Under the pieces are notes generated by a model, which made no database searches, had not been told where the DNA came from, and saw nothing but the letters and a program-made list of their open reading frames with translations. Of a stretch of DNA of 64,000 nt, positions 13,049-62,160 are shown piece after piece. Source of the stretch: a phage; sequence record PQ327946.1, one strand, 5' to 3'. A program made the translations under genes and the position numbers. Numbering within the stretch: the first letter of the stretch is position 1; each line of letters begins with the position of its first letter.

Positions 13049-14864
13049 AGGACATCCATTCTTTACGAAGTTCAGAATCATCACCCAACAACATTTCAAA
13101 GAGTTCTTTCCAATTTTCAGGAAGTTTAACTACGTCGTACACAGGGTTCTGAATCATTTCACGATATTCTGACTTTTCAAGGGAGCCCAATCCCTTGATG
13201 TATCGAATACTATGCTTAGGAAGTGTATCTTTAGCTTCTTCATACTCAGCTACAGTATAAAACCATTTTTGAGTTTTGCCAATTTGTGCAATAATTACAG
13301 GCGTTTTAACAAAGCGAATACGTCCTTGTTCAAACAATTCAGGCCAATTACTAAAGAAAGCAAGCAAAGCCGGATAAATACTTCCAAGACCGTCATGATC
13401 GGCATCGGTCATAATTGCAATATTACGATAGTTCGTATTCTCTGCCTTTTCACCAAGAATAAGACCTGTGATAGCACAGATATCGAAGAGCTCTTTGTTC
13501 TTCATCATATCAGCATATGACATACCCCAGCTATTCATCACCTTACCACGTAATGGGAATCCGCCGTGTAGTTCACGGTCACGAACATCAATGAGATAAC
13601 CAATTGCCGAATCACCTTCTGTTAAAAACAATGTCGTATCTGCATCTTTACCACATTGGTTAGCTTTAATATGCTTATGAACCTTAGCTTTAGTTGCCTT
13701 TTTAGCTGCTTTAGTTTCTGCGGCCTTTTCTGCTGCCAATTTACGAGCTAATGCTGCTTCAACAATAGGCATAATCAAGGCTTCATTTTTAAGAAGTGCC
13801 TGAGCAATTTTCTTAGCATCTAATTGGATATGATTACGAATATCACCATACGTTGACGTTAAACGTTCTTTAGTCTGAGAATCAAAACGCATGTTGCTCA
13901 TGTCTCTAATAAACATCAACAATGTGAGACATTCTTTAACACGAGCTTTAGTGACTTCAATACCCTTATATTTCTTTTTAATGCCGGGCAAAAGATGTTC
14001 GCAGATATCATCCATTACACATTCAACATGATGACCACCATTTTTAGTATGGATGTTATTCACATAAGTTAAATGACGGAAGCCGTCTGGTGATGTTGTG
14101 AATGCTATAGAGACTTTATCATTTTCTTGAATGATGTTATCTTCACCAAATTGTTTAGCAAATCGTTTAAAATTACCATCAACCTTTTTACCATTAAATG
14201 TGAACTTGATATCAGGATAAACGACTGCCAATGTTTGAAGTCGGTCTAAAGTAATATCTAAATAAATTTGAGATAAATTATGCTCTTCAAATGAAGAGAA
14301 ATCAGGAGTGAAGATTACTTTGGTGCCTTTACCTTTAGATTTCTTAGAAGACCATGATTTGTTTTCCATTCCGTTTGAACAGTTAACAGTGATTTCATTT
14401 TCGCCATCTGACGTGATGCCTGTAAACAACGTAGAGAAGATATTAGTTAAACTACTCCCGACGCCGTTCATACCACCAGTCTTGCGTTCAGAGTCATCAC
14501 CAAAGTTACCACCAGCCTTTGGAATAGTCCAGGCTGCTACAGGCCCAGGAATTTGTTCACCTGTTTGGTCGGTAACTAAACCTTGAGGAATACCACGTCC
14601 GTTATCTTCCACTGAGACTTGATTATTTTTAATTTGCACATCAATTTTATTTGCAAACTTAAATGATGTACGAATAGCTTCATCAACCGAGTTGTCAATA
14701 ATCTCATCGATTAATTTAACCAGACCAGGAACATATTCAACTTGTTGATATTTACCAAACAAAAAACGCTCGTGGGCTTCTTTGGCCGAAGAACCAATAT
14801 ACATGCCACTTCGTTTCTTAATATGTTCTACATCTGACAATACCTTAATTTCATTTTTAATCAT
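13047..14864 (-). CDS. 39: DNA topoisomerase II large subunit gp39 (GyrB-like), uninterrupted form
   Basis: 605 aa; GyrB ATPase and Toprim segments; matches the unsplit 39 of T2/T6-type phages, not the T4 39+60 split. Confidence 0.85.
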   Translation of the reverse strand: MIKNEIKVLSDVEHIKKRSGMYIGSSAKEAHERFLFGKYQQVEYVPGLVKLIDEIIDNSVDEAIRTSFKFANKIDVQIKNNQVSVEDNGRGIPQGLVTDQTGEQIPGPVAAWTIPKAGGNFGDDSERKTGGMNGVGSSLTNIFSTLFTGITSDGENEITVNCSNGMENKSWSSKKSKGKGTKVIFTPDFSSFEEHNLSQIYLDITLDRLQTLAVVYPDIKFTFNGKKVDGNFKRFAKQFGEDNIIQENDKVSIAFTTSPDGFRHLTYVNNIHTKNGGHHVECVMDDICEHLLPGIKKKYKGIEVTKARVKECLTLLMFIRDMSNMRFDSQTKERLTSTYGDIRNHIQLDAKKIAQALLKNEALIMPIVEAALARKLAAEKAAETKAAKKATKAKVHKHIKANQCGKDADTTLFLTEGDSAIGYLIDVRDRELHGGFPLRGKVMNSWGMSYADMMKNKELFDICAITGLILGEKAENTNYRNIAIMTDADHDGLGSIYPALLAFFSNWPELFEQGRIRFVKTPVIIAQIGKTQKWFYTVAEYEEAKDTLPKHSIRYIKGLGSLEKSEYREMIQNPVYDVVKLPENWKELFEMLLGDDSELRKEWMS

Positions 14865-14869
14865 GTTGT

Positions 14870-14910
14870 CTCCTCGTTATGAAGGTATTCTATCATCCGA
14901 AATCTAAAGC
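14870..14910 (-). promoter_or_regulatory. Candidate MotA-dependent middle promoter (TGCTTTA - N12 - TAGAAT) for gene 39
   Basis: Minus strand TGCTTTAgatttcggatgaTAGAATaccttcataacGAGGAGacaacATG. Confidence 0.45.
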
Positions 14911-14929
14911 AAAAAGGGCCGAAGCCCTT
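14908..14929 (-). terminator. Terminator hairpin (AGGGC-UUCG-GCCCU + U tract)
   Basis: + strand aaaaagggccgaagccctt at the 3' end of the goF-like gene. Confidence 0.5.
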
Positions 14930-15353
14930 ATTTAAATTTAATTTTCTGAAGTGCATCAATTGCAGCCAAACGCCCTTGTTCACTTTTAACTGTAATGACC
15001 ACATCACCTGATACGATCACCGAACCATCAACAAATTCTACAGAGCCTTTTTTGAAATCGACAGCTGTATCCGGTTCCGGAACTTCTTCAAAGAATTTAA
15101 ATTCTGCACCATAAAGCAGAATATCACCTTGCATACTATGAATAGTTCGACCATAATCGCCTACGGCTTCTACAGCAATCACCGAAACACCGTAACCAAT
15201 CATCTCTTCCACAATAAAATCTTTGGACAATAAAGTAGTATGCAGATTAGTATTAAGACGTTTACCAGTCGTATTAAGAAGTCTCAAGAAATTATCTTCC
15301 TGTCCTTTGATAATACGATATTTCTTACCAACTTCAAAACCTTTAAAAGCCAT
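14928..15353 (-). CDS. Hypothetical protein, goF-like position (141 aa)
   Basis: 141 aa ORF immediately upstream of gene 39, where T4 carries goF (also 141 aa); no motif support. Confidence 0.4.
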   Translation of the reverse strand: MAFKGFEVGKKYRIIKGQEDNFLRLLNTTGKRLNTNLHTTLLSKDFIVEEMIGYGVSVIAVEAVGDYGRTIHSMQGDILLYGAEFKFFEEVPEPDTAVDFKKGSVEFVDGSVIVSGDVVITVKSEQGRLAAIDALQKIKFK

Positions 15354-16816: not shown

Positions 16817-17236
16817 TTATGCAAAAGATGCTGGACAATATTTTTTGATTTGGAACTCAGGAACTACCATGAACTGTCCGGCGAAAACGATGTTATAAAG
16901 CTTAACACCATCTTCTACCCAACGGTCGCTAATAAATCCGGCGATTTGCTTAGTTTTCCACGGTGTTCCATCAGTTGCCGCAGCAATAGTGAATTCATGG
17001 TCTTTTACAACTAAAACAGACCTGCACAGTTTCCATTTGAACACACGTTCTTCTGGCTCAATGAATTGGCTTTTAACATAACCAATGTTACCATCAACGT
17101 CACGAACTTTAACTTCGTTACGTCCAAAAACCGGATCACTCACAGAAAGAACTTCAACCAACTTCCCGGCAACTTTAGAGCGAGAAGCAACAGATACATA
17201 TACGTAATCACCTGTAGAGAGATTTACAATATTCAT
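16817..17236 (-). CDS. Hypothetical protein, tandem paralog A (KOW-like N-terminus)
   Basis: 139 aa; shares ..VASRSKVAGKLVEV.. and C-terminal GFISDRWVEDGVKLYNIVFAGQF with the next gene. Confidence 0.55.
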   Translation of the reverse strand: MNIVNLSTGDYVYVSVASRSKVAGKLVEVLSVSDPVFGRNEVKVRDVDGNIGYVKSQFIEPEERVFKWKLCRSVLVVKDHEFTIAAATDGTPWKTKQIAGFISDRWVEDGVKLYNIVFAGQFMVVPEFQIKKYCPASFA

Positions 17237-17245
17237 AATAATTCC

Positions 17246-17776
17246 TTAAGCTTTACGAGGAGACACATAGCGAGTGATTTCAGATTCTTTAACAACTCGG
17301 AAGTCACCTAAGAATACGATATTGTATAACTTTTCACCATCTTCAACCCATTGGTCACTAATGAAGCCACACATAGTATCAGTTTTGCTTGGATAACCGT
17401 ATTCGTCGATGTAATCAAATTCTTTATCGGTTACAAATTCAACGCCTTTACACAAGGCCCATTTGAACTGTACATTAGGCTCAGTGGATTCACATACGTA
17501 TCCATCACGTGATTCAACTTCTTCAACAGAAGAAAAGTGTGCAGGTGCAACTTCTTCGCTTGAAGCAAATTGGACTCGTATATGTTTTTCCAGGAATTTA
17601 GGACTTACGTAAGCATACTGGGCATCTTGTCCGCCAAAACTGGGCATGATTCGAACTTTAACTTCTTTAACAAGTCCCATGCCGTTAGTACGAAGCCCTG
17701 CGACTTCAACCAGACGACCTGCAGCTTTAGAACGAGAAGCAGGAGATACACGAAGGATTTCACCAATAGTAATCAT
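17246..17776 (-). CDS. Hypothetical protein, tandem paralog B
   Basis: Start moved to the ATG (MITIGEIL) with RBS; ..SPASRSKAAGRLVEV.. and GFISDQWVEDGEKLYNIVFLGDF. Confidence 0.55.
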   Translation of the reverse strand: MITIGEILRVSPASRSKAAGRLVEVAGLRTNGMGLVKEVKVRIMPSFGGQDAQYAYVSPKFLEKHIRVQFASSEEVAPAHFSSVEEVESRDGYVCESTEPNVQFKWALCKGVEFVTDKEFDYIDEYGYPSKTDTMCGFISDQWVEDGEKLYNIVFLGDFRVVKESEITRYVSPRKA

Positions 17777-17806
17777 ATTTTTTCTCTCTTTGTTTAAGTT
17801 GAATTC

Positions 17807-17836
17807 ATTATACTCCAACCATCCTTGGTTGTAAAC
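17807..17836 (-). promoter_or_regulatory. Early promoter cassette GTTTAC-AACCAAGGATGGTTGGAG-TATAAT (repeat copy 1 of 3)
   Basis: + strand attatactccaaccatccttggttgtaaac. Confidence 0.5.
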
Positions 17837-17841
17837 TGGTT

Positions 17842-18519
17842 TTATCGCTGTTTTACACTTAACGGATCAGGATTCTCAGGGACATCTTCAAGGCCAAGCG
17901 CATAACGCTGGGCATATTTTAACATCAAAATATCTTTAGCACAATCATGAATACTATCATGGGCAACGAATCCTTTTAGCGTACCCATTGGTAATGGACA
18001 CATACTTAATCCTCGTGTCAACGAGTAAGCTTCGATTGCCGTACGAATATCGCGTTGAGCCCAGAATTTAACCGGTTCTAATTTATCAGTATCAATCTCT
18101 GGTTCAGGAACACCTTCATCACGATAGAGGTCACGAATCAAATCGACCAATATCGGGAAGTCAAAGCTCATACCACGGCACCACATCTGTGATTTCCATT
18201 GGTCGACTTTATTAGCTCGGCAATAATCTAAAAAGATTTTAATGCCTTCAAGCGTAGTGACATCGTCTTCAGACGGAGCCAAGTTTTTACGCGCTTCAGC
18301 CGATTGTTCTTTCCACCATTTCATAGTGGATTTAGCGAAAACTCGCTTCCCTTTCTGAGAAGCTAAATTAAATTTAATTCGTTTACCTCGTTGAACAAGT
18401 TCTTCAAATGATTCAACAACTTCAGGGTCGGAATTATATGCAATAACCGCAAGGTCAATAACAGCTGCTTTTGATGTATTGCCGAATGTTTCAAAATCTA
18501 TAATAACATCAGTGCTCAT
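17842..18519 (-). CDS. dexA: Exonuclease A DexA (DEDD 3'-5' exonuclease)
   Basis: 225 aa; N-terminal IIDFETFG exonuclease motif; upstream of dda as in T4. Confidence 0.7.
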   Translation of the reverse strand: MSTDVIIDFETFGNTSKAAVIDLAVIAYNSDPEVVESFEELVQRGKRIKFNLASQKGKRVFAKSTMKWWKEQSAEARKNLAPSEDDVTTLEGIKIFLDYCRANKVDQWKSQMWCRGMSFDFPILVDLIRDLYRDEGVPEPEIDTDKLEPVKFWAQRDIRTAIEAYSLTRGLSMCPLPMGTLKGFVAHDSIHDCAKDILMLKYAQRYALGLEDVPENPDPLSVKQR

Positions 18520-27895: not shown

Positions 27896-27955
27896 TTCAA
27901 TTTCCTCTGTAGTTGATAAAAAGATAGTAACACAGTATGCGATGCTTGTAAACAG

Positions 27956-28213
27956 TTATTTTAAACTTTTGCGAAATTTGCGTTTTTCTTGACGAATCTG
28001 TCGTTTAGTCGGACGTACAGCAAATTTAACGAAGTCCACTTTGCCGTGTGGAAACTTTTCAGATGCTTCACAGTCCATCATTAGTTCCCATCCTTCCAGA
28101 ATAAGAGCTTTCCATTGTGTAGTTGATGCAAATTCGTATGTTGATGGTTTAAACACAGTTGAATACATATTATCCTCTGAAATCAGCTTCAAAAACTTTC
28201 TCGTCATTAACAA
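27956..28213 (-). CDS. Small protein with basic C-terminal tail (VRPTKRQIR motif)
   Basis: 85 aa; paralogous to 56954-57151 through the shared motif F.VRPTKRQ[IL]R. Confidence 0.5.
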   Translation of the reverse strand: MLMTRKFLKLISEDNMYSTVFKPSTYEFASTTQWKALILEGWELMMDCEASEKFPHGKVDFVKFAVRPTKRQIRQEKRKFRKSLK

Positions 28214-28382
28214 ATGCTTTAACTAATGCTTTGTTCACTTCAGCAAGTTGTACCGTAACCCACTCGATTTCTTCACGGTCACCTGATAACATGATATCTT
28301 TAGTGAACATCTCGCCGCTTTTAAACCAACCGATAAAAGTAACTTTAGTTAATTTGCTCATATTTCCTCGCAAAATGCCCAT
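28170..28382 (-). CDS. Hypothetical protein (70 aa)
   Basis: ORF. Confidence 0.4.
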   Translation of the reverse strand: MGILRGNMSKLTKVTFIGWFKSGEMFTKDIMLSGDREEIEWVTVQLAEVNKALVKAFVNDEKVFEADFRG

Positions 28383-49215: not shown

Positions 49216-49437
49216 TCATCGTTTCCACCATTTCTTAACTTGAAATGAATCAACCCACACGAGTTGTTTTGGGTCTGCCTTTACAATAGGTGGACAAATT
49301 TCTGTAATAGAACTGTCGTGATATTCCTTTTCAGAGATTTTAACACAAAGAGGACCTCCCAATTTAATGGAGAATCCTGCGTTCAGATTAAGACGTTTAA
49401 ACTTTGTTTGAACTAGCGCCATTAATGATGTCCTCAA
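49216..49437 (-). CDS. Hypothetical protein (73 aa)
   Basis: ORF. Confidence 0.4.
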   Translation of the reverse strand: MRTSLMALVQTKFKRLNLNAGFSIKLGGPLCVKISEKEYHDSSITEICPPIVKADPKQLVWVDSFQVKKWWKR

Positions 49438-49720
49438 TAGCCTGACGAGTAGTAATCCACTGGATTTTAATTAACTTGTCATTATATGGTTGTCGTAGAA
49501 TATCCCGAGATTTCTTAATAGCATATTCATAAGCTTCGAAGTTGTTTTGAATTGCTGCTTCTTGAGCATGAGCATAAAGACGGTTTAGTTCAAAACGATT
49601 CTTTTTAAGAATCTTTTCGGATTTTTTACGTGCTTCAGCTTCATTTTTCTTTTGGATTTCTTGTAGCATTTTAGCTACTGCATCTTCTGCTTCTTTATTT
49701 TCAATAATCTCGGTAGTCAT
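49397..49720 (-). CDS. Hypothetical protein (107 aa)
   Basis: ORF. Confidence 0.45.
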   Translation of the reverse strand: MTTEIIENKEAEDAVAKMLQEIQKKNEAEARKKSEKILKKNRFELNRLYAHAQEAAIQNNFEAYEYAIKKSRDILRQPYNDKLIKIQWITTRQAIEDIINGASSNKV

Positions 49721-56526: not shown

Positions 56527-56952
56527 TTAGTAAACGTTATAAAAGTCTCGATGAAAACGTCTTTCTAAATATTCAATGTATTCCGCTGCGGCTTGCATCA
56601 GATTACCTTCATAACCGTCATTATTTTCTTGGGCGGCTAATTTAGCTAGAGCATAAGAAATACGTTCACCTTCGAATTTGCCAACACAAACTACTTGGTC
56701 AATTTCTTCGAGTTCATCTATTGAATGGGATTCCCAGAAGCACCAAAGAGAAGTATCACGGTCATAGATGCAAAGTTTATCACCTGTGTTCAACATCACT
56801 TCGTTAATGCCATGGCCGCCATAACCACCTTCGGTAGTAGTACCAATTACCTTGATGAGTGTTCCTTTCTTTAATTCAGGAAACTTGACTTGTAGTTCTT
56901 CATCTTCTTTAACAATCTTGAACCATTTACCGCGAGTTTCAGAAATATTCAT
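56527..56952 (-). CDS. Hypothetical protein, pin-like position (about 141 aa)
   Basis: Start set at internal ATG MNISETRGKW; the T4 neighbour of gene 49 is pin; positional only. Confidence 0.35.
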   Translation of the reverse strand: MNISETRGKWFKIVKEDEELQVKFPELKKGTLIKVIGTTTEGGYGGHGINEVMLNTGDKLCIYDRDTSLWCFWESHSIDELEEIDQVVCVGKFEGERISYALAKLAAQENNDGYEGNLMQAAAEYIEYLERRFHRDFYNVY

Positions 56953-56953
56953 A

Positions 56954-57151
56954 TCAATATTCTCTATAAAAGTTACGATGAGAACGTTTAGCTTTGCGAA
57001 GCTGACGTTTAGTAGGACGAACTGTAAATGGTTGTCCAGAGAAAAAATTCGGATCGGTTTTAATAAGCAAATACCAATCATGCTTGCCATTTTTTAATAA
57101 ACGGTACAATAATTTAACTTGCATAATAATCTCTTCCCATTTCCATATCAA
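56954..57151 (-). CDS. Small protein with basic C-terminal tail (VRPTKRQLR motif)
   Basis: 65 aa; paralog of 27956-28213. Confidence 0.5.
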   Translation of the reverse strand: MIWKWEEIIMQVKLLYRLLKNGKHDWYLLIKTDPNFFSGQPFTVRPTKRQLRKAKRSHRNFYREY

Positions 57152-57252
57152 TTAATTCATTTATTGAAGGTTCATCATAACACGTTTCTTCGTCATTGTA
57201 AACTGTTTCGACGTCTGGCTCGACTGTCTCCCATCGAGCCGAATACCACGGT

Positions 57253-61632: not shown

Positions 61633-62160
61633 TTATGCGTGAACCGTCTTTAAACGTTCTTCAAATTTCCGAAGAGTACTAATACGTTCTGCTTTCTGTT
61701 TTGTATAGTTTGCAATACGTTCTGAAGTGAGAGCGTATCGTTCGTTTACTGTTTCTTTCATGAAGTCAGGGATTTCACGAGAAGCTTTAATTTCATCAAA
61801 CTTATCGAGTACTGCCTGGTCTTCAGCGATTAAATTTTCGTACATCTCGATATCTTTCTTGATAAACTCGATATCTTCCTGGGTTACTTTGGATAAACGA
61901 GATGCTTTATCCTTTTTGTACTGCTCGTTAGTTTCACGAGACCAGAATAATGTACGTTTTTTGTTAGTGTTTTTGTAGACTTCCACAATTCCAACTGAAT
62001 CGATGATAGCAATCCAATTCCAGCGAGATTTGAAAATCTGACCTCCGTCCACGGTAATCTCGTTACCATAAGCAACGTCATTAAAGAACTTGCTTTGTGC
62101 TTCAGATTTAAATTTACCGTCGTTATAATTTACCAGGTTGAAAATATCTTTAGCGTTCAT
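61633..62160 (-). CDS. Hypothetical protein (175 aa)
   Basis: GGAGG RBS and promoter cassette upstream. Confidence 0.55.
   Translation of the reverse strand: MNAKDIFNLVNYNDGKFKSEAQSKFFNDVAYGNEITVDGGQIFKSRWNWIAIIDSVGIVEVYKNTNKKRTLFWSRETNEQYKKDKASRLSKVTQEDIEFIKKDIEMYENLIAEDQAVLDKFDEIKASREIPDFMKETVNERYALTSERIANYTKQKAERISTLRKFEERLKTVHA

What the first reader, a model, noticed from the sequence alone, without database searches (positions are those of the whole stretch)
27956..28213. Dispersed paralogous small proteins sharing a basic C-terminal motif VRPTKRQ[IL]R
ORFs at 27956-28213 (85 aa) and 56954-57151 (65 aa) lie about 29 kb apart and end in an almost identical tail (FAVRPTKRQIRQEKRKFRK versus FTVRPTKRQLRKAKRSHRN). 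The motif looks like a nucleic-acid-binding or targeting peptide reused on different N-terminal domains.
Basis: seen in the sequence. Interest (0 to 1): 0.45.

Follow-up and report, generated by a model that had tools for sequence, protein, structure and literature searches.

The report
TifA anti-toxin gene and its paralog
The two small genes are real relatives of each other: one is TifA, a known phage protein that uses exactly this basic motif to bind RNA and disarm the bacterial ToxN defence toxin. The other is a shorter, uncharacterised copy of the same fold next to the Lon-protease inhibitor gene pin.

Summary
The window is an RB69-like T-even phage (Mosigvirus).

**ORF A.** The true gene is 27956-28168(-), 70 aa, starting at an ATG. 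It is 100% identical to RB69 gp61.4, which is TifA. TifA is the published RNA-binding inhibitor of the type III toxin ToxN.

**The motif.** VRPTKRQIR is the Pro-Thr cap (P53, T54) plus K55, R56 and R59 of TifA's C-terminal basic helix. Mutating exactly these residues abolished RNA binding and ToxN neutralisation (PMC10853763).

**ORF B.** The true gene is 56954-57124(-), 56 aa, starting at an ATG.
- It is not an unrelated domain carrying a reused peptide. Both proteins match Pfam DUF7279 along the whole profile.
- Profile-profile alignment gives 98% probability over 46 columns.
- Both fold as three β-strands followed by a PT-capped helix.
- ORF B is a compact version. It lacks the loop around residue 41 that tunes ToxN recognition.
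- It is under purifying selection and intact in about 146 Mosigvirus genomes. It lies just upstream of pin.
- I found no paper that describes it. Its function is inferred: RNA binding, possibly counter-defence against a different target.

**Verdict.** The motif function is already known. ORF B is a new, uncharacterised member of a known family. Interest is modest.

The parts
27956..28168 (-). tifA (gp61.4), 70 aa plus stop. ToxN inhibitory factor A, an RNA-binding anti-toxin protein.
   Evidence: It is 100% identical to RB69 gp61.4. It hits DUF7279 at 3.5e-20. Function comes from PMC9391042 and PMC10853763. The model shows E2-6, E27-33, E43-49 and H55-69.
27992..28012 (-). Codons P53-R59 of TifA (PTKRQIR): the Pro-Thr helix cap plus K55, R56 and R59. 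This is the experimentally defined RNA-binding core of the shared motif.
   Evidence: Residue numbering was read from the sequence. The mutagenesis is in PMC10853763. K55, R56 and R59 are invariant, and P53, T54 and Q57 nearly invariant, in a 40-sequence family alignment.
28170..28361 (-). dmd (61.5), immediately upstream and reported as co-operonic with tifA in T4. It is the antitoxin against RnlA/LsoA.
   Evidence: RB69 annotation mapped onto the window. The dmd-tifA operon is described in PMC9391042.
56954..57124 (-). ORF B: a 56-aa compact TifA-family (DUF7279) paralog. It corresponds to RB69ORF089c in its intact form.
   Evidence: It hits DUF7279 at 1.1e-14 and PHROG 3272 at 5.8e-27. The AlphaFold model has pLDDT 90.5 with E2-9, E15-24, E27-33 and H39-55. 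pN/pS is 0.12-0.24. It is intact in 221 of 223 phage records that hold it or a relative.
56996..57016 (-). Codons P37-R43 of ORF B (PTKRQLR), the counterpart of TifA P53-R59.
   Evidence: Alignments A2, A3 and A6 and the hhalign comparison. The helix starts at residue 39 in the model.
57174..57203 (-). T4-early-promoter-like site (GTTTACA-N17-TATGAT with an upstream TG) inside gene 49.1, about 50-80 nt upstream of the ORF B start codon. This is a prediction only.
   Evidence: Consensus scan and sequence. The equivalent site is annotated as early-promoter-like in phage SA79RD. The number of promoter-like sites in the scanned region does not exceed chance.
56527..56952 (-). pin (Lon protease inhibitor), immediately downstream of ORF B. 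In this window its last 9 codons (56530-56556, FHRDFYNVY) are the remnant of a third, deleted TifA-like paralog of the RB69ORF087c type.
   Evidence: DNA alignment with RB69 shows a 168-bp deletion between ACGTTT repeats.

Best explanation
The two ORFs are diverged paralogs of one small phage protein family, TifA / Pfam DUF7279.

[quoted passage not shown] The shared motif, [FY]x[VT][RK]-P-T-K-R-Q-[IL]-R-x-x-K-R, covers three elements:
- the end of strand 3;
- the Pro-Thr N-cap of the helix;
- the solvent-exposed basic face of the helix, which binds RNA.

**ORF A (shown by others).** ORF A is TifA itself. It is an early gene co-transcribed with dmd. Published experiments show that TifA binds RNA through this helix and, in an RNA-dependent way, binds the endoribonuclease toxin ToxN of the type III toxIN system. 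The proposed mechanism is that it traps ToxN on abundant RNA such as 16S rRNA, so that phage transcripts survive.

**ORF B: what the data here support.**
- It is a real coding gene under purifying selection.
- It has the same predicted fold and keeps every residue of the RNA-binding core.
- It has tight hairpins in place of TifA's long beta1-beta2 connection and in place of the beta2-beta3 loop around residue 41 that tunes ToxN recognition.
- It sits directly upstream of pin.

**ORF B: what is inferred.**
- It is probably also an early RNA-binding protein.
- It probably works in the TifA manner, tethering a partner to RNA. Because it lacks the ToxN-specificity loop, the partner is more likely a different RNase-type defence or toxin than the ToxN inhibited by TifA.
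- Together with Pin, which blocks Lon-dependent antitoxin degradation, it may form a second small counter-defence cassette.
For: **Identity of the phage and of ORF A**
- The window is 97-99% identical to RB69-like Mosigviruses.
- ORF A equals RB69 gp61.4 at 70/70 residues.
- gp61.4 was renamed tifA; it inhibits ToxN, and the RB69 protein is the stronger inhibitor (PMC9391042).
- TifA-RB69 binds RNA. P53A/T54A and K55A/R56A/R59A abolish RNA binding, ToxN rescue and co-immunoprecipitation (PMC10853763).

**Homology of A and B beyond the tail**
- Pfam DUF7279 is matched by both over the full model.
- PHROG cross-hits link the two.
- hhalign gives 98% probability over 46 columns.
- The models share the same beta-beta-beta-alpha plan, with pLDDT 90.5 and 80.5.
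- Foldseek against BFVD links both models to the same small T4-like phage proteins, for example Merlin A0A0K1LNJ9.

**Conservation of the motif**
- K55, R56 and R59 are invariant, and W27, P53, T54, Q57 and R66 nearly invariant, in 40 family members.

**ORF B is a real gene**
- pN/pS is 0.12-0.24 at pS 0.2-0.47 in nine of ten pairs among five Mosigvirus sequences. The tenth pair, window vs SHSML-52-1, has too few synonymous changes to be informative (pS 0.04).
- About 146 phage records hold it at 80% identity or more, and 221 of 223 matches are full length.
- It is annotated as a 171-nt CDS in several genomes.

**The duplication is old and maintained at the protein level**
- The 57-nt motif segment is only 39/57 identical between A and B.
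- 6 of the 12 same-residue codons differ synonymously.

**Context**
- PinA is treated as an anti-TA Lon inhibitor in a review (PMC10286901).
- The dmd-tifA-adfA region has been called an anti-TA island.
Against: - Nothing here tests ORF B's RNA binding or any target. Its function is inferred from homology and a predicted structure.
- TifA homologs from other phages, which keep the motif, failed to neutralise any tested ToxN or TenpN. Family membership therefore does not predict ToxN inhibition.
- The RB69 reference sequence carries a frameshift in ORF B (7 A versus 6 A). The gene is therefore dispensable for RB69 in the laboratory, unless that is a sequencing error.
- The related pin-flanking paralog (ORF087c type) has been deleted repeatedly, so these genes are accessory.
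- The early promoter is a consensus match only. The scan found no more promoter-like sites than chance.
Confidence: 0.85

Rival explanations
1. ORF B is a second ToxN inhibitor. In this reading it is a TifA isoform tuned to a different allele of ToxN or to another type III toxin (TenpN or CptN type), giving the phage a wider anti-toxIN range.
For: It has the same family, fold and RNA-binding core. TifA homologs show toxin specificity that is thought to reside in variable loops. The spacing between the conserved Trp and the PT cap varies from about 17 to 29 residues across the family, which fits diversification of a recognition surface.
Against: ORF B lacks the residue-41 loop that modulates ToxN binding and is predicted to approach the ToxN active site. 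Divergent homologs with the motif did not inhibit any tested ToxN or TenpN. No interaction data exist for ORF B.
Confidence: 0.25
2. ORF B is a general small RNA-binding or RNA-chaperone-like protein serving phage gene expression or host shut-off, with no specific defence target.
For: The basic helix is conserved. TifA itself binds RNA, ssDNA and dsDNA without marked sequence specificity. ORF B is the minimal version of the fold, with little surface left for a protein partner.
Against: It is an accessory gene. It is frameshifted in the RB69 reference, and its closest paralog is repeatedly deleted. That pattern is more typical of arms-race genes than of core expression factors. It is absent from T4 itself.
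Confidence: 0.2
3. The motif is a portable nucleic-acid-binding or targeting peptide grafted onto unrelated N-terminal domains.
For: Pairwise BLASTP aligns only the 19-residue tail.
Against: Profile methods align the N-terminal strands as well. The predicted folds are the same. The motif is the structural N-cap plus helix of a single domain.
Confidence: 0.03
4. ORF B is a decaying or non-coding remnant, and the resemblance is a chance or DNA-level repeat.
For: The tail match alone is borderline in an all-against-all search (E=8e-4). RB69 annotates only a 38-aa TTG-start fragment.
Against: There is purifying selection on the ORF B frame. It is full length in 221 of 223 records. The Pfam hit is 1.1e-14. 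The fold prediction is confident. Synonymous divergence in the motif excludes a recent DNA copy.
Confidence: 0.03

Closest known systems
TifA (T4 gp61.4 / RB69 gp61.4), ToxN inhibitory factor A (Srikant et al. 2022 eLife, PMC9391042; Guegler et al. 2024 NAR, PMC10853763)
   Same: ORF A is this protein, 70/70 identical to the RB69 version used in the experiments, and sits next to dmd. ORF B shares the Pfam family, the predicted beta3-alpha fold, the PT helix cap, and basic residues at 7 shared helix positions including K, R and R of the mutated triad.
   Different: ORF B is 56 aa against 70-85 aa. It has tight hairpins instead of the long beta1-beta2 connection and instead of the loop carrying residue 41. 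It lies about 29 kb away next to pin rather than dmd. It is only about 28% identical overall. Its activity against ToxN is untested.
Pfam PF23945 (DUF7279); PHROG 2375 (TifA type) and PHROG 3272 (ORF B type)
   Same: Both window proteins score well above the Pfam gathering threshold (72.1 and 54.5 bits against 24.5). Each is a full-length member of its PHROG.
   Different: The Pfam entry is a domain of unknown function. The two PHROGs are listed as function unknown and are kept as separate families.
RB69ORF087c-type small proteins downstream of pin (RB69, PP01, IME08; 'RB32 ORF078c-like')
   Same: These are the closest paralogs of ORF B: 36% identity over the full length, E=2e-11. They have the same compact architecture, keep the RPTK core of the motif (RPTKKMIR, with Lys-Met where ORF B has Arg-Gln), and flank pin.
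   Different: They lie on the other side of pin and have a three-residue-longer beta2-beta3 connection. In this window the gene is deleted, leaving only 9 codons fused to pin.
Dmd (T4 gp61.5) and other phage-encoded antitoxins
   Same: They are small early proteins of T-even phages that neutralise RNase toxins of host TA systems. dmd is the upstream neighbour of tifA.
   Different: Dmd binds RnlA/LsoA directly as a protein antitoxin and is unrelated in sequence. TifA action needs RNA.

Membership tests
TifA / DUF7279 family | Sequence match to the family profile (Pfam PF23945) above the curated threshold | tested here: met
   ORF A scores 72.1 bits (E 3.5e-20). ORF B scores 54.5 bits (E 1.1e-14). 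The cut-off is 24.5 bits. Both matches cover nearly the whole 53-position model.
TifA / DUF7279 family | [quoted passage not shown] | tested here: met
   These are predicted models only. ORF B has E2-9, E15-24, E27-33 and H39-55 at pLDDT 90.5. ORF A has E2-6, E27-33, E43-49 and H55-69 at pLDDT 80.5. The published description is quoted.
TifA / DUF7279 family | Conserved Pro-Thr cap followed by a cluster of basic residues (K55, R56, R59 in TifA numbering) | tested here: met
   ORF A has P53, T54, K55, R56 and R59. ORF B has P37, T38, K39, R40 and R43. The triad is invariant in 40 family sequences.
TifA orthologs (functional ToxN inhibitors of T2/T4/T6/RB69) | Position immediately downstream of dmd in the dmd-tifA early operon | tested here: met
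   This is met for ORF A only. ORF B does not meet it: it lies between gene 49.1 and pin.
TifA orthologs (functional ToxN inhibitors of T2/T4/T6/RB69) | Extended beta2-beta3 loop carrying residue 41, which modulates ToxN binding | tested here: not met
   This verdict applies to ORF B. The Trp-to-Pro spacing is 20 residues against 26 in TifA, and the model shows a two-residue turn between strands 2 and 3. ORF A has the loop, with H41, as in RB69.
TifA orthologs (functional ToxN inhibitors of T2/T4/T6/RB69) | Neutralises ToxN and binds RNA | not testable with these tools
   For ORF A this is taken from the literature on the identical RB69 protein. For ORF B there are no data.

The most novel reading that the evidence does not exclude
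The compact pin-flanking TifA-like proteins (ORF B / RB69ORF089c type and the ORF087c type) may form a second, unrecognised counter-defence cassette of T-even phages. In this reading they use the same PT-capped RNA-binding helix to trap a different RNase-type defence effector, not the ToxN hit by TifA. They would work alongside the Lon inhibitor Pin and turn over rapidly through short-homology deletions. Those deletions have left helix remnants fused to Pin, including in the canonical T4 PinA.
Probability: 0.3. Interest if true: 0.55.

Novelty: new member of a known kind. Interest (0 to 1): 0.3.

Why it matters
**Already answered.** The motif is the RNA-binding helix of TifA, an anti-toxin-antitoxin factor.

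**What may be new.**
- RB69-like phages carry up to three TifA-family genes. The papers I could search discuss only the dmd-linked one.
- The compact paralogs keep the RNA-binding core but lack the ToxN-recognition loop. That makes them natural candidates for inhibitors of other RNA-targeting defences.
- They also amount to a natural minimal-scaffold experiment for how TifA couples RNA binding to toxin recognition.

**A practical point.** The RB69 reference has ORF B frameshifted. Work done only with RB69 would miss any function of this gene.

Tried and rejected
- **PDB fold search.** Foldseek of the ORF B model against the PDB gave no match with E below 0.6. No solved structural relative was found.
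- **PADLOC and NCBIfam.** Neither protein hit anything.
- **Third copy in the window.** The only sub-threshold HMM hit, 61682-61765(-) at E 0.22, is a 28-codon fragment (LHERNSKRTIRSHFRTYCKLYKTESRTY). It has no PT cap or beta region and was rejected.
- **Promoter and terminator scan around ORF B.** Counts were not above the shuffled expectation. The early-promoter call rests on one good consensus match and on another group's annotation.
- **Literature.** Searches for DUF7279, for ORF089c / ORF087c / ORF078c, and for newer TifA papers found nothing on the paralogs.
- **Word-indexed protein search with ORF B alone.** It found only 2 clusters. A family alignment was needed to reach further.
- **Recent DNA duplication or gene conversion.** Rejected from the codon comparison.
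- **The 85-aa and 65-aa TTG-start versions.** Rejected in favour of the ATG starts.
- **The 187-aa ORF 56527-57090.** Its N-terminal extension overlaps ORF B in another frame and is not supported. Pin homologs start at MNISETRG.

Full report
**What the window is.** The region around both ORFs is 97-99% identical to RB69 and other Mosigvirus genomes (T-even phages of E. coli and Shigella).
- ORF A lies in the gene run 41, ORF041c, ORF040c, dmd, 61.4, imm.1, imm, sp, all on the minus strand.
- ORF B lies in the run nrdC, ORF092c/091c, 49.1, ORF B, pin, 49, nrdD.

**Checking the observation.** Both ORFs and both quoted tails are in the sequence exactly as described.
- For ORF A, the ATG at 28168 lies one base after the dmd stop codon and follows GAGGA. 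It gives a 70-aa product identical to RB69 gp61.4.
- For ORF B, the ATG at 57124 gives 56 aa. It overlaps the end of gene 49.1 by 11 nt, as annotated in several Mosigvirus genomes.

On significance, BLASTP aligns only the tail: 12/19 identities, E=8e-7 for one comparison. In an all-against-all search of 495 six-frame ORFs of the window, the pair scores E=8e-4, in the same range as obvious noise pairs. The tail match alone would therefore not be conclusive.

**Homology covers the whole protein.**
- Both proteins match Pfam PF23945 (DUF7279) far above threshold. ORF A scores 72.1 bits over residues 18-68; ORF B scores 54.5 bits over residues 7-53. Both span essentially the whole 53-position model.
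- Each protein is a full-length member of its own PHROG (2375 and 3272) and cross-hits the other's.
- I built separate alignments of the compact pin-flanking type (A6) and the long TifA type (A7). Comparing them with hhalign gave 98% probability, E=2.5e-13, over 46 columns. ORF B 11-53 aligned with ORF A 21-69, including the conserved Trp of strand 2.
- AlphaFold models built on a 40-44-sequence family alignment give the same plan. ORF B has strands 2-9, 15-24 and 27-33 and helix 39-55 (pLDDT 90.5). ORF A has strands 2-6, 27-33 and 43-49 and helix 55-69 (pLDDT 80.5).
- Foldseek against viral predicted structures returns only small proteins of T4-like phages. The two models share hits, for example Citrobacter phage Merlin A0A0K1LNJ9.

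The reading 'one peptide on different N-terminal domains' is therefore wrong. These are two copies of one small domain.

**What ORF A is.** RB69 gp61.4 is TifA. T4 gene 61.4 was renamed tifA after T4 evolved to escape the type III toxin-antitoxin system toxIN by amplifying the dmd-tifA locus. The RB69 protein is 56% identical to T4 TifA and is the more potent ToxN inhibitor (PMC9391042).

A follow-up study reported the following (PMC10853763).
- TifA-RB69 binds RNA with KD 0.36-2.3 uM, and also ssDNA and dsDNA in vitro.
- The AlphaFold model is a three-stranded sheet plus a C-terminal basic helix capped by P53-T54.
- P53A/T54A and K55A/R56A/R59A abolish RNA co-purification, ToxN rescue and co-immunoprecipitation.
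- Residue 41, in a variable loop, tunes ToxN binding.
- ToxN, TifA and RNA form a large complex enriched in 16S rRNA.

Counting along the window protein, VRPTKRQIR is V51-R59. In my 40-sequence alignment K55, R56 and R59 are invariant, and W27, P53, T54, Q57 and R66 are nearly so.

**What ORF B is.** It keeps the cap and triad (P37, T38, K39, R40, R43). By my count from the two sequences, it shares basic residues with TifA at seven helix positions.

It is one of the most compact family members. The Trp-to-Pro spacing is 20 residues, against 26 in T4 and RB69 TifA, with a range of roughly 17-29 across the family. The model shows tight hairpins where TifA has its long beta1-beta2 connection and its residue-41 loop.

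Evidence that it is a real gene:
- pN/pS is 0.12-0.24 between diverged Mosigvirus copies with pS 0.2-0.47.
- tblastn finds it at 80% identity or more in about 146 phage records. 221 of 223 matching records cover at least 80% of it in one piece.

The duplication is old and maintained at the protein level. The 57 nt encoding the shared tail are only 39/57 identical, and 6 of the 12 same-residue codons differ synonymously.

The family is small. A profile search of 1.84 billion representative proteins found 70 clusters at E of 0.001 or better. One of them (P0090, 942 aa, repetitive) looks spurious; the rest are 55-161 aa, most under 105 aa.

I found no paper that mentions a TifA paralog, DUF7279 or the RB69 ORF names.

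**Context of ORF B.**
- A good match to the T4 early promoter consensus (GTTTACA-N17-TATGAT, preceded by TG) lies 50-80 nt upstream, inside gene 49.1. The equivalent site is annotated as early-promoter-like in phage SA79RD. This is a prediction only.
- ORF B's stop codon is one base from the pin start codon.
- PinA inhibits Lon and is cited as an anti-TA strategy, because Lon degrades antitoxins (PMC10286901).
- The dmd-tifA-adfA region has been called an anti-TA island. The ORF B-pin pair may be a second such cluster. That is my inference.

**A third paralog and its remnants.** RB69 has another compact family member, ORF087c (59 aa), on the other side of pin. It is 36% identical to ORF B over the full length (E=2e-11). 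Tequatroviruses such as PP01 and Dhakaviruses such as IME08 carry this type just downstream of pin.
- In this window the gene is gone. A 168-bp deletion relative to RB69, bounded by an ACGTTT repeat, fuses pin in frame to the last nine codons of ORF087c (FHRDFYNVY).
- T4 shows an independent event of the same kind. Relative to PP01 it lacks 137 bp, so canonical T4 PinA (161 aa) ends in MIQQYKRLHQMFYNT, the tail of the lost paralog's helix.
- In Shigella phage SHSML-52-1, pin itself is missing and the ORF B-like gene ends in ...NFYNIY. That looks like recombination between the two flanking paralogs.
- The RB69 reference has one extra A in the A-run at window 57090-57095. This is why ORF B is annotated there as a 38-aa TTG-start fragment.

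**Mechanism and confidence.**
- For ORF A the mechanism is published: an RNA-dependent trap of ToxN.
- For ORF B I infer RNA binding through the same helix with fairly high confidence.
- A TifA-like counter-defence role against a target other than the ToxN recognised by TifA has lower confidence, about 0.3. The reasons for preferring a different target are the missing specificity loop and the fact that divergent motif-bearing homologs failed on all tested ToxN and TenpN proteins.
- Alternatives are a second ToxN-family inhibitor or a general RNA-binding factor.
- Chance, recent DNA copying and a modular peptide are all disfavoured.

**Verdict.** The paralog is a new, uncharacterised member of a known family. 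Interest is modest.

Noticed in passing
window 56527-56556 (-), junction near 56556/56557; compare L002 1128-1340: The window's pin gene is a fusion. A 168-bp deletion relative to RB69, between ACGTTT repeats, removes pin's last three codons and stop codon plus most of RB69ORF087c, a third TifA-like paralog. Pin therefore ends in that gene's last 9 residues, FHRDFYNVY.
   Followed up: yes
L010 (T4 NC_000866 46897-47382) versus L003 (PP01): Canonical T4 PinA (161 aa) ends in MIQQYKRLHQMFYNT, which is the C-terminal helix tail of a TifA-like gene that PP01 still has downstream of pin. T4 lacks 137 bp relative to PP01. This is an independent event of the same kind as in the window.
   Followed up: yes
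window 57090-57095 (A-run on the minus strand); L002 about 1850-1870: The RB69 reference has 7 A where the window, judging by full-length tblastn coverage, nearly all other records have 6. This frameshifts ORF B, so RB69 annotates only a 38-aa TTG-start ORF089c. It is either a real lab-strain mutation or a sequencing error.
   Followed up: partly
L007 (Shigella phage SHSML-52-1) 701-1113: pin is absent, and the ORF B-like gene has an ORF087c-like C-terminus (...NFYNIY). This suggests that recombination between the two pin-flanking paralogs excised pin. The phiE142 cluster P0001 has a similar ...NFYNVY end.
   Followed up: partly
window 16820-17245 (-) and 17249-17866 (-): These adjacent ORFs are clear paralogs: 38% identity over 170 aa, E=4e-25, in the all-against-all BLASTP. 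From memory of T4 gene order they may be the modA/modB ADP-ribosyltransferase pair. This was not tested.
   Followed up: no
window 27924-27953 (-): Directly after the tifA stop codon there is a T4-early-promoter-like sequence (GTTTAC-N18-TACTAT) in front of imm.1. It was seen in the sequence only.
   Followed up: no
phage collection, tifA locus: RB69-type TifA at 95% identity or more occurs in only 69 records, with none between 60% and 95%. The surrounding 1.7-kb region is at least 95% identical in about 142 records, and ORF B occurs in about 146. The tifA allele may therefore be swapped in many Mosigviruses.
   Followed up: no
window 14864-15016 (-) and 49219-49470 (-): There is a weak similarity between two small minus-strand ORFs: 41% over 34 aa, E=2e-4. 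It could be another small paralog pair or noise.
   Followed up: no
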